Positions 42,487-43,423 of a stretch of 64,000 nt of DNA are shown here, one piece after another. This DNA comes from a virus. Made by a program: the position numbers and the translations under genes. The number at the start of each line of letters is the position of its first letter. Position 1 is the stretch's first letter. The DNA is taken from positions 32,001-96,000 of the IMG/VR virus record IMGVR_UViG_3300010430_000007, one strand, 5' to 3'. Under the pieces are notes generated by a model, which was not told where the DNA came from, did not search any database, and saw only the letters and a list, made by a program, of their open reading frames with translations.

Positions 42487-43263
42487 AATTAATGATTGAG
42501 GCTCTTGTGAGTCTCTTTTATTTTTAGAGAACATATAGACAAATAGAGATATGTGAGTATATCGTTCAAACGCCACTAGGGCTTATAGACTGTCGTCTAT
42601 ATTTGTATTGGTGAATATATTTATGAATAGATGTGAATGAATATGATGTAGATTGATGAGGTTAGATATAAGAGGAGATAAATATATATGGTAGTCTATG
42701 TATGGTATATAGATAAGTATTGATGTGTAGTGTATAGAAGGCTGTCTATAGTTATATATGTATGTGTATGAATGTGAGTCAGATAGATATCAGTGAATAT
42801 AGATAAGAGTATATATTGGTAAGGGTAAATATAGGTGAATGTATATATGTATATATCTATGAGAGTCTATGTTGAACATATAGACAAGAATAGATATTTG
42901 AATATTAGTATGTGTGAATGTGTATAGATATTGATACAATTATATATGTGCGTGTGTAGATATGTATGATGGTAAATATATAAAGATGTGAATGTTTGGA
43001 TATTATAATATAGATAGGATTGAATATAGATATGTTTAGATATAGATGATATATAATATGTAATGAGCACAATGTGAAATGATTATAAATAGATATATAG
43101 GTGAGTGTTGATATTAGTATACATAGATAGCTATCCATTCAATCGCCATTCAGGCTTTTAGATATTTATATATTATGATATGTATATGTGAGTATTGTTA
43201 ACTGTTCAGTGTGATTGGGTTAACATATGGATAGATAGATAATAATAGATGTGATAAGTAGGC

Positions 43264-43362
43264 TGTGGATAATGTGGATAGAATTGTGGATAAGTATATA
43301 GGTTGTGGATATGTTAATATGTGGATAAGTGTGTGGATAACATGTTAGTAATATGTGGATAA
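43264..43362 (-). promoter_or_regulatory. Cluster of 7 co-oriented DnaA boxes
   Basis: TGTGGATAA at 43264, 43285, 43320, 43332, 43354; one-mismatch copies at 43273, 43304 (TTATCCACA on the minus strand). Confidence 0.88.
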
Positions 43363-43423
43363 TAAAATAGGTGATAATGAATACATCTGAATGAAAATTC
43401 TTGTTACCAATTCGATATGCAAA

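What the first reader, a model, noticed from the sequence alone, without database searches (positions are those of the whole stretch)
43225..43365. Phage-borne oriC mimic: seven co-oriented DnaA boxes with a basal-unwinding-like junction
Seen: seven TGTGGATA(A/G/T) 9-mers in 99 bp, five of them perfect DnaA boxes, all in one orientation. On the minus strand the last tandem pair reads TATCCACA-TTATCCACA-GCC-TACTTATCACATCTATTATTATCTATCTAT, followed by AT-rich DNA. Established: TTATCCACA is the DnaA box, and Firmicute oriC unwinding sites have tandem DnaA boxes, a short GC spacer and then TAC/TAT DnaA-trio repeats. Here the trios are imperfect after the first one. The flanks are phage genes, not dnaA/dnaN. 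Inference: either a host-DnaA-dependent phage origin (plasmid-like or early theta replication) or a datA-like sink that titrates DnaA and stalls host replication.
Basis: partly seen in the sequence, partly recalled or inferred. Interest (0 to 1): 0.9.

Follow-up and report, generated by a model that had tools for sequence, protein, structure and literature searches.

The report
DnaA-box array beside phage genome end
A 134-kb SPbeta-like phage from marine sediment carries seven textbook binding sites for the host replication initiator DnaA in the gene-free stretch where its relatives cut and package their DNA. It almost certainly docks that host protein there, but what the docking achieves (starting replication, handling the DNA end, or decoying DnaA) is unproven.

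Summary
Window 43264-43362 holds five perfect TGTGGATAA boxes and two one-mismatch boxes, all on one strand. These are 5 of only 6 perfect boxes in the 133,911-bp genome, far beyond chance. The same sequence appears in other assemblies, so it is not a chimera.

The context changes the reading. The phage is SPbeta-like, with a YonO RNA polymerase. The array lies in a 1.9-kb gene-free region upstream of the yonO operon. That region has a nearly C-free left arm, a centre, and a nearly G-free right arm. SPbeta keeps the conserved motif and the G-poor right arm around its mapped pac site. Phage Perkons has the full layout around its mapped 264-bp terminal repeat. A GGGGGTA motif is invariant across all four phages compared.

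The DnaA boxes fill a variable "repeat slot" left of the predicted terminal segment. Relatives carry other short repeats there, so the array is lineage-specific. The oriC-like junction has the right polarity but only 2-3 acceptable trios. The unstable flanks may belong to the arms rather than to a DnaA element.

DnaA docking is about 0.9 likely. An origin-like role is the best guess (about 0.4). A packaging or end-handling role, a sink and a transcription block remain open. Similar arrays are common in uncultured phages, and this scan has noted them before.

The parts
42498..42515 (+). Intrinsic-terminator-like hairpin plus T-run. It closes the upstream gene (42052-42486) and marks the left edge of the gene-free region.
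42566..42590 (+). Element E1a (TCAAACGCCACTAGGGCTTATAG), at the head of the long C-free segment.
   Evidence: E1 occurs only twice in the genome, both here and co-oriented. A 26-nt stretch is identical in an unrelated 83.8-kb IMG/VR phage.
42600..43225 (+). Left arm. The + strand is nearly free of C (1-4 C per 100 nt in most bins; about 10 in the bin holding E1b at 43139-43163; G about 24). It has a strong alternating T-purine pattern.
   Evidence: A C-poor left tract also occurs in L132 and Perkons.
43139..43163 (+). Element E1b (TCAATCGCCATTCAGGCTTTTAG), the second copy of E1.
   Evidence: A similar copy is in L132 at 4027-4050.
43157..43196 (.). Very unstable duplex (candidate unwinding element), 68 bp from the first box.
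   Evidence: Nearest-neighbour stability rank 86 of 63,959 40-mers. Other unstable 40-mers lie nearby at 43025-43064 (rank 12) and 43457-43496 (rank 55).
43226..43263 (+). Trio-like tract plus GC spacer. Read leftwards from the boxes it runs GC, TAG, AAG, GAT and then becomes irregular.
   Evidence: A run of 3 central-A triplets has background probability 0.037 per position; the strict run is only 2.
43264..43362 (+). DnaA-box array of 7 co-oriented boxes, starting at 43264, 43273, 43285, 43304, 43320, 43332 and 43354. On the minus strand they read TTATCCACA.
43423..43440 (.). Perfect 18-bp palindrome ATGTTTCACGTGAAACAT just right of the array.
   Evidence: L132 has a different palindrome at the same relative place.
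43445..43790 (.). Centre: the predicted terminal-repeat or pac segment.
   Evidence: Alignment A1. The right edge of the Perkons terminal repeat lies about 50 nt after the invariant GGGGGTA, which corresponds to about 43785 here. The Perkons ends were mapped by PhageTerm. The SPbeta pac site lies in the syntenic spacer.
43731..43750 (+). Element E2a (GGGGTACTTTTCAAATATAG), carrying the conserved GGGGGTA-type motif.
43790..44470 (+). Right arm. The + strand is nearly free of G (2-9 G per 100 nt; C 22-30). The second E2 copy is at 44227-44246.
   Evidence: A G-poor right tract also occurs in L132, L133, Perkons and SPbeta.
44475..44503 (+). SigmaA-type promoter (TTGACA-17-TAGTAT, with TG upstream) for the operon that leads to yonO.
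   Evidence: It resembles the annotated -35/-10 signals of phage Cp-7.
46873..49455 (+). YonO-type single-subunit RNA polymerase, the marker that places the phage among SPbeta-like phages.

Best explanation
The seven boxes are real high-affinity docking sites for the host initiator DnaA. They lie in the conserved genome-end control region of an SPbeta-like phage. They occupy a variable slot of short co-oriented repeats, immediately left of the segment that is the terminal repeat in phage Perkons and holds the pac site in SPbeta.

Most likely mechanism, which is inferred and not shown:
- DnaA-ATP binds the tandem boxes.
- By the polarity of the boxes, its filament extends leftwards onto the C-free strand.
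- This helps open the very unstable DNA at about 43157-43262.
- A helicase can then be loaded, so replication starts close to the genome end.

In both arms, the strand that such a helicase would track outwards is the G-free, unstructured one. The array is a lineage-specific substitute for the phage-specific repeats that relatives carry in the same slot.
For: DnaA binding:
- Five exact copies of the 9-bp consensus plus two one-mismatch copies lie in 99 bp. The repeat unit is exactly box length.

Origin-like features:
- The order of tandem boxes, GC spacer and first trios matches a real oriC (L145; PMC7561715).
- Three of the least stable 40-mers of the window lie within 240 bp of the array, on both sides.
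- The G-free strands of both arms are almost unstructured, at -1 to -10 kcal/mol per 120 nt.
- The phage has its own polymerase, primase and DnaB-like helicase. No initiator (DnaA, serine recombinase or ParA-type protein) turned up in the families tested.

Genome-end context:
- The SPbeta pac site lies between yonR and yonP.
- The Perkons 264-bp terminal repeat lies between a C-poor and a G-poor tract.
- The GGGGGTA motif is invariant in all four phages aligned.

Slot idea:
- L132 has four TTGATAT repeats and Perkons has three TTACTTTTA repeats at the equivalent place.
Against: - The trio run is weak, with 2 strict motifs and no period-3 signal.
- Relatives without DnaA boxes share the strand-polar arms, so the unstable, unstructured DNA may be a property of the arms rather than evidence for a DnaA-specific element. 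Stability was not computed in the relatives.
- The array is missing in L132 and in all more distant relatives examined.
- The phage's replication genes lie about 60 kb away.
- In other uncultured phages, DnaA arrays often sit just upstream of terS-terL or inside terminal repeats, not by replication genes.
- In T5 the DnaA boxes are not at the origin.
- No experiment of any kind exists for this phage.
Confidence: 0.4

Rival explanations
1. Genome-end accessory. DnaA bound at the array works as a host architectural or anchoring factor for end biology. That could mean terminase assembly or cutting at the adjacent terminal segment (as IHF does at lambda cosB). It could also mean tethering, protecting or pausing the DNA end during entry (as proposed for the T5 injection-stop region).
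For: - The array lies 80-430 bp left of the predicted terminal segment.
- It fills the slot where relatives have their own short repeats next to the mapped Perkons terminal repeat.
- In about 19 of 31 IMG/VR contigs with a TerL hit, a DnaA array lies 0.36-2.2 kb upstream of terS-terL. In two genomes it lies inside the terminal repeat.
- T5-like phages keep DnaA-box pairs in the untranslated part of the terminal repeat.
Against: - No case of DnaA acting in packaging or injection has been demonstrated; the T5 model is a hypothesis in a preprint.
- The physical ends of this phage are not mapped.
- Many of the TerL-linked arrays come from one phage clade, and repeats make contigs break, so the counts are not independent.
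Confidence: 0.25
2. DnaA sink. As the phage genome multiplies, the arrays titrate DnaA. This lowers host initiation or changes the DnaA regulon, as datA or the B. subtilis DnaA-box clusters do. Position in the genome would be incidental.
For: - Perfect, high-affinity boxes sit on a replicon that reaches high copy number.
- There is no adjacent Rep gene or iterons.
- The array is lineage-specific and dispensable in relatives, as expected of an accessory trait.
Against: - There are only seven sites per genome.
- The strict co-orientation and the placement in a defined slot of a conserved architecture suggest a position-dependent role.
- The arms add no excess of weak boxes.
Confidence: 0.12
3. 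Transcription block or timer. DnaA bound to the co-oriented boxes blocks or gates transcription that crosses the gene-free region. That would tie expression of the yonO operon, or of non-coding transcripts, to free DnaA and so to phage copy number.
For: - The array lies between the terminator of the upstream operon (42498) and the promoter of the yonO operon (44475).
- Co-oriented DnaA boxes can block RNA polymerase in one direction (my own knowledge of the E. coli asnC and mioC work, not checked here).
Against: - The array is 1.1 kb from the promoter.
- An intrinsic terminator already closes the upstream gene.
- No promoter inside the region stands out above shuffles.
- There are no RNA data.
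Confidence: 0.1
4. The repeats are read by a phage protein (small terminase or initiator) whose site happens to equal the DnaA box, and DnaA is irrelevant.
For: Relatives have phage-specific repeats in the same slot.
Against: - Five exact matches to all nine positions of TTATCCACA would be a remarkable coincidence.
- Such a protein would also bind host oriC.
Confidence: 0.05

Closest known systems
Bacterial oriC basal unwinding system (tandem DnaA boxes, GC spacer, DnaA-trios, AT-rich element; Richardson et al. 2016 and 2019; PMC8287927)
   Same: It has tandem co-oriented consensus boxes, the same polarity of boxes, GC spacer and first trios, and very unstable DNA beyond.
   Different: It has only 2-3 acceptable trios against 6 or more in the real origins checked. 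There are no dnaA or dnaN neighbours. It sits on a phage, inside a packaging or terminus region, and relatives do not conserve it.
DnaA-box pairs in the injection-stop (iss) region of the terminal repeat of T5-like phages (Davison 2020, bioRxiv 10.1101/866236)
   Same: Host DnaA boxes, some in close pairs (0- and 3-bp gaps here), lie in a large untranslated, repeat-rich region associated with the genome end, and not at the known origin.
   Different: T5 has eight boxes arranged on inverted repeats, with no strand-polar arms. Here all boxes point one way. The terminal position here is inferred by synteny, not mapped.
SPbeta pac site or genome opening point between yonR and yonP, and the 264-bp terminal repeat of Psychrobacillus phage Perkons (10.1101/2021.11.22.469490; PMC13245101)
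   Same: The position upstream of the yonO operon is the same. So are the GGGGGTA motif, the G-poor tract running to a sigmaA promoter, and (in Perkons) the C-poor tract on the other side.
   Different: Those phages have no DnaA-box cluster there. Perkons has TTACTTTTA repeats instead.
DnaA-assisted plasmid and plasmid-prophage origins (P1 oriR, pSC101, F; my own knowledge)
   Same: Several consensus DnaA boxes lie next to easily melted DNA on an extrachromosomal replicon.
   Different: No Rep gene or iterons lie beside the array. No ParA (AAA_31), serine-resolvase or phage D-1873-type TubZ/ParB partition genes were found.
E. coli datA and B. subtilis DnaA-box clusters (titration loci)
   Same: It is a cluster of high-affinity boxes outside oriC.
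   Different: It is much smaller than the B. subtilis clusters. It is strictly co-oriented and sits at a fixed place in a conserved phage architecture.

Membership tests
oriC-type basal unwinding system (BUS) | Pair of co-oriented DnaA boxes no more than 3 bp apart, each within 2 mismatches of consensus | tested here: met
   43264 (perfect) and 43273 (1 mismatch) abut. 43320 and 43332 are perfect with a 3-bp gap. The rule is taken from PMC8287927.
oriC-type basal unwinding system (BUS) | Polarity 5'-TTATCCACA, short GC spacer, (CTA/TTA)n-3', with a spacer of no more than 16 bp | tested here: met
   The phage minus strand reads CTATCCACA-TTATCCACA-GC-CTA-CTT. A Paenibacillus dnaA-dnaN spacer reads TTATCCACA-TATTCAGTG-CGC-CTA-TTA-CTA-TTA-CTA. 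The C. difficile sequence is.
oriC-type basal unwinding system (BUS) | At least three consecutive DnaA-trios, 3'-[G/A]A[T/A]-5' | tested here: inconclusive
   Two motifs are strict and a third has only the central A; then the register breaks. The permissive NAN x3 rule passes, but its background is 0.037 per position. The arm shows no period-3 signal.
oriC-type basal unwinding system (BUS) | AT-rich unwinding element beyond the trios | tested here: met
   The 40-mer 43157-43196 ranks 86 of 63,959 for instability. The strand-polar arm that holds it also occurs in relatives without boxes, though stability was not computed there.
oriC-type basal unwinding system (BUS) | DnaA-dependent strand opening and origin activity | not testable with these tools
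   This needs P1 or KMnO4 footprinting, marker-frequency analysis and autonomous-replication tests.
DnaA-assisted plasmid or plasmid-prophage origin (P1 oriR type) | Adjacent Rep initiator gene with iterons, plus partition functions | tested here: not met
   The flanking ORFs have no Rep family hit. No iteron family lies beside the boxes. There is no ParA (AAA_31), resolvase, or phage D-1873-type TubZ/TubR/ParB. Only a few families were tested.
datA / DnaA-box-cluster titration locus | Cluster of high-affinity boxes whose effect does not depend on position, and which titrates or inactivates DnaA | not testable with these tools
   The boxes are present. Titration would need copy-number and initiation assays.
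T5-type iss DnaA-box region | DnaA-box pairs on inverted repeats (IRC/IRD) in the untranslated part of a long terminal repeat | tested here: not met
   All boxes point one way. No IRC/IRD-like inverted repeats carry them. Terminal association is inferred only.
SPbeta-like genome-end (pac / terminal-repeat) control region | Gene-free region upstream of the yonO operon with strand-polar arms and the GGGGGTA motif before the G-poor arm | tested here: met
SPbeta-like genome-end (pac / terminal-repeat) control region | Physical DNA ends or the pac cut mapped inside it | not testable with these tools
   Only contigs of low-depth metagenome runs were available. The ends are mapped in Perkons and SPbeta-group phages, not in this phage.

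The most novel reading that the evidence does not exclude
Host DnaA has been adopted as the site-specific factor of the phage's genome-end machinery. The DnaA boxes replace the phage-specific repeats that relatives use beside the terminal repeat. DnaA then helps define where the genome is cut, duplicated or anchored. The many DnaA arrays just upstream of terS-terL or inside terminal repeats of other uncultured phages, and those in T5, would be the same undescribed use of the host initiator.
Probability: 0.2. Interest if true: 0.8.

Novelty: new variant of a known kind. Interest (0 to 1): 0.6.

Why it matters
DnaA is the universal bacterial initiator. If phages routinely dock it next to their genome ends, that would be a general and barely described point of host dependence. 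It could bear on timing of replication, packaging or DNA entry, on host range, and on a possible defence target.

This locus offers a clean natural comparison. Four related phages share the same genome-end architecture. One carries DnaA boxes in the repeat slot and two others carry their own short repeats there; no repeats were sought in SPbeta. That makes swap experiments easy to design.

It also gives a concrete prediction for where this uncultured phage's DNA ends lie. And it cautions against calling every phage DnaA-box cluster an origin.

Tried and rejected
- **Weak boxes in the arms.** DnaA boxes with 2 or fewer mismatches are not enriched over dinucleotide shuffles (8 against 5.1 in the left arm; 5 against 4.6 in the right). 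The arms are not a giant low-affinity DnaA array.
- **Giant trio array.** The C-free arm has no 3-nt periodicity; its dominant signal is period 2.
- **Shared motifs in the arms.** The C-poor strands of eight arms from five phages share only AT-rich 6-mers. A Chi-site idea was dropped because known Firmicute Chi sequences contain C (my own knowledge).
- **E2 as a general YonO promoter.** In the sequence scanned (about 10-12 kb either side of yonO), the E2 pattern matched only the three closest phages: ours, L132 and L133. The looser GGGGGTA form appears at the SPbeta and Perkons genome-end region. It was not tested against the mapped yonK start site.
- **RNA.** Rfam gave nothing over 40-46 kb. 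The RNA-fold scan showed no convincing structure, with the best local z of -3.8 on the minus strand at 43900-44080. No RNA holder was listed among the sequencing runs.
- **Similarity searches.** BLAST of the region against phages and plasmids gave nothing beyond a promoter look-alike.
- **Partition and initiator genes.** Phage D-1873 TubZ, TubR, ParB, UvrD and PhoH have no homologues in the genome. There is no serine recombinase, AAA_31 ParA or DnaA.
- **Searches for closer relatives.** The 93-aa product of the first gene after the arm has no homologues. The genome-contig scan gave only a 51% Paenibacillus relative. The P0005 contig had no DNA available.
- **Read laying.** The four runs showed no differences, no joints and no pile-up of ends. 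They are contigs, so they cannot show termini.
- **T5 comparison.** The T5-like iss region has no strand-polar arms.
- **Chimeric host-oriC fragment.** Rejected. The cluster obeys the C-free rule of the arm: a single C from the first box (43264) to the end of the arm. Other assemblies also span it.

Full report
**Observation.** Window 43264-43362 carries seven co-oriented 9-mers. Perfect TGTGGATAA boxes start at 43264, 43285, 43320, 43332 and 43354. TGTGGATAG starts at 43273 and TGTGGATAT at 43304. These are the only perfect boxes in the window. They are 5 of the 6 perfect boxes in the whole 133,911-bp virus record, whose 123-bp end overlap indicates a circular assembly. Shuffles of the cluster region give 0.32 boxes on average and never more than 3.

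The same sequence occurs in two ENA contigs: L134 spans the whole array, and L135 begins inside it. A Logan contig also spans the array. The phage is present at low depth in four marine-sediment runs with no differences listed. These runs may include the source sample. The genome has no dnaA. A chimeric host-oriC fragment is therefore excluded.

**What the element sits in.** The 860-aa ORF at 46873-49455 is a YonO-type single-subunit RNA polymerase. It is 46-51% identical to those of SPbeta-group phages, Clostridium phage D-1873 and Psychrobacillus phage Perkons. Terminase and portal genes follow. The other arm of the genome encodes a PolIII-alpha-like polymerase, a primase, a DnaB-like helicase, RecJ, Erf, a 287-aa Xer-like tyrosine recombinase and anaerobic ribonucleotide reductase. 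This is a roughly 30% GC SPbeta-like phage of an unknown, probably anaerobic Bacillota host.

The array lies in a 1.9-kb gene-free region (42515-44475) with a striking anatomy:
- The + strand is almost free of C from 42600 to 43400.
- The + strand is almost free of G from 43790 to 44470.
- A mixed centre lies between the two arms.
- The boxes sit at the inner end of the C-free arm and obey its rule: a single C from the first box (43264) to the end of the arm.
- Two short elements each occur twice, only here in the genome and co-oriented: E1 at 42566 and 43139, and E2 (GGGGTACTTT) at 43731 and 44227.
- A perfect 18-bp palindrome follows the array at 43423-43440.
- A sigmaA-type promoter at 44475 starts the operon that leads to yonO.

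**Relatives.**
- The nearest relative with usable DNA is L132 (YonO 70% identical). It has the same layout: a C-poor tract, an E1 copy, a repeat cluster, a palindrome, a centre, E2, a G-poor tract, a second E2 and a promoter. It has no DnaA boxes. At the equivalent place it has four co-oriented TTGATAT repeats.
- L133 (also 70%) starts inside its G-poor arm.
- More distant relatives have no DnaA cluster within about 10-12 kb of yonO. None of them showed extreme tracts in my coarse threshold scan. Finer looks at SPbeta and Perkons did reveal them.
- Two IMG/VR proviruses have no pair of boxes anywhere in their records.

The array is therefore lineage-specific, while its setting is conserved.

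**The setting is the genome-end region.** Kohm et al. place the SPbeta pac site, or genome opening point, between yonR and yonP. That is the spacer just upstream of the yonO operon. It holds a GGGGGTA motif followed by about 400 bp of G-poor DNA that runs to the yonP promoter.

Perkons has PhageTerm-mapped ends with a 264-bp direct terminal repeat (PMC13245101; record annotation). Oriented like our window, its layout runs as follows:
- a C-poor tract;
- three co-oriented TTACTTTTA repeats;
- the terminal repeat;
- GGGGGTA inside the last 55 bp of the repeat;
- a 500-bp G-poor tract that starts exactly at the repeat's edge.

In an alignment of the four phages, GGGGGTA is invariant. A CCACAC-type block follows about 50 nt later, at the right edge of the Perkons repeat, which corresponds to about 43785 here. 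I therefore predict that the centre, about 43445-43790, is this phage's terminal-repeat or pac segment. This is inference by synteny and a conserved motif, at about 0.75. On that reading the DnaA array occupies a variable repeat slot just left of that segment.

**The oriC comparison.** I checked the polarity on real data. A Paenibacillus dnaA-dnaN spacer reads TTATCCACA-TATTCAGTG-CGC-CTA-TTA-CTA-TTA-CTA-ATA. The C. difficile trio tract has the same sense. The phage minus strand reads CTATCCACA-TTATCCACA-GC-CTA-CTT-ATC-ACA-TCT. So the box pair, the spacer and the polarity all fit.

Only two trios fit the strict motif, and a third has just the central adenine. A run of three central-A triplets has a background of 0.037 per position. 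The arm shows no 3-nt periodicity. The DNA beside the array is among the least stable in the window, with 40-mers ranked 12, 55 and 86 of 63,959. The G-free strands of both arms barely fold. However, relatives without DnaA boxes also have the strand-polar arms, so these properties may belong to the arms and do not argue for DnaA-specific unwinding on their own.

**Wider picture.** My own rough estimate of the chance expectation, assuming about 60 Gb in the collection, is about 0.005.
- None of 49 contigs tested encodes DnaA.
- 87 of 120 arrays are intergenic, with 3-13 boxes each.
- Among 31 contigs with a TerL hit, about 19 have the array 0.36-2.2 kb upstream of the terS-terL operon. In two genomes with 221-bp and 177-bp terminal repeats, the array lies inside the repeat.
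- Many of these contigs belong to one clade, and repeats break contigs, so the counts are not independent.
- One large phage has its array 250 bp from a helicase gene.
- T5-like phages keep DnaA-box pairs in the untranslated part of their terminal repeat, away from the known origins.
- This scan has recorded many similar arrays in other phages, and strand-polar arms in other SPbeta-like phages.

Phage-borne DnaA arrays are therefore common but hardly treated in the literature I could search.

**Mechanism and odds.** DnaA binding is close to certain for exact consensus sites (about 0.9). What the binding is for is open.
- **Origin-like role, about 0.4.** I rank this first. It is the only demonstrated activity of tandem co-oriented DnaA boxes next to meltable DNA, the polarity is right, and swapping initiator repeats for DnaA boxes is an easy evolutionary step.
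- **Genome-end accessory role, about 0.25.** This covers packaging, repeat duplication, or tethering and pausing at entry.
- **DnaA sink, about 0.12.**
- **Transcription block or timer, about 0.1.**
- **A phage protein using the same motif, about 0.05.**

None of these can be separated without virion-end mapping, marker-frequency profiles and DnaA biochemistry.

**Verdict.** The finding is best described as a host DnaA-box array inserted in the conserved, strand-polar genome-end region of an SPbeta-like phage. It is a new variant of a known kind, of moderate to good interest.

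Noticed in passing
window 42600-43400 and 43790-44470: Two mirror-image non-coding arms. The + strand is almost C-free on the left and almost G-free on the right. The G-poor right tract occurs in L132, L133, Perkons and SPbeta, and a C-poor left tract in L132 and Perkons. In Perkons the tracts flank the mapped genome ends. 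At each predicted physical end the 5'-ending strand would be the G-free one. The cause and function are unknown.
   Followed up: partly
window 42566-42590 and 43139-43163; L141 10411-10436: Element E1 occurs twice, only here in the genome. A 26-nt stretch (CGTTCAAACGCCACTAGGGCTTATAG) is identical in an unrelated 83.8-kb, 38% GC IMG/VR phage that has one copy and no detectable YonO. By my estimate chance would give about 3e-5 such matches. It has a T-loop-like TTCAAAC followed by GCCAC, but no tRNA is called.
   Followed up: partly
window 43731-43750 and 44227-44246; L132 4656 and 5097; L133 1500; L007 11276; Perkons terminal repeat: A GGGGGTA-type motif (E2) is conserved in SPbeta-like phages. 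It lies about 50 nt before the right edge of the mapped Perkons terminal repeat and at the head of each G-poor tract. It is a candidate terminase recognition element or promoter.
   Followed up: partly
window 43423-43440: A perfect 18-bp palindrome, ATGTTTCACGTGAAACAT, lies between the DnaA array and the centre. L132 has a different palindrome (GGTTAATTATTAACC) at the same relative place. The binding protein is unknown.
   Followed up: no
IMG/VR loci L008-L127 (for example L019 61-174, L029, L018, L101): More than 120 viral contigs carry arrays of 3-13 consensus DnaA boxes, often with an 11-bp repeat (TGTGGATAACY). None of 49 tested encodes DnaA. Many arrays lie just upstream of terS-terL, and two lie inside 177-bp and 221-bp terminal repeats.
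   Followed up: partly
window 42052-42486 (+): The 144-aa product of the last gene before the gene-free region carries an HEIGHH zinc-metallopeptidase-type motif but matches no Pfam or PHROG family. L132 has an SprT-like gene on the other side of its region.
   Followed up: partly
window 41308-41853 (-), promoter 41929-41900: A lone minus-strand gene (181 aa, no family hit) sits among plus-strand genes. It is driven by the best sigmaA-type promoter match in the area (TTGGCA-18-TATAAT with TG). It could be a regulator or an immunity gene.
   Followed up: no
window 54093-55154 and 59752-60714 (+): Two HNH or homing-type endonuclease genes sit within the packaging module: one upstream of the YonG-like and large-terminase genes, the other just after the portal gene. 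SPbeta relatives have GIY-YIG or other insertions splitting yonO, which is intact here.
   Followed up: no
window 29354-31720 (-) and 2296-3477 (-): A 788-aa protein combines a DNA-methyltransferase-like C-terminus with a weak primase-like segment. An RtcB-type RNA ligase is also present.
   Followed up: no
phage records OP172753-OP172757 (Enterocloster phages): Distant YonO-like polymerase genes start within 0.2-1.1 kb of the record start in several 97-107-kb Enterocloster phages. This hints that linkage between the polymerase gene and the genome end extends beyond SPbeta-like phages.
   Followed up: no
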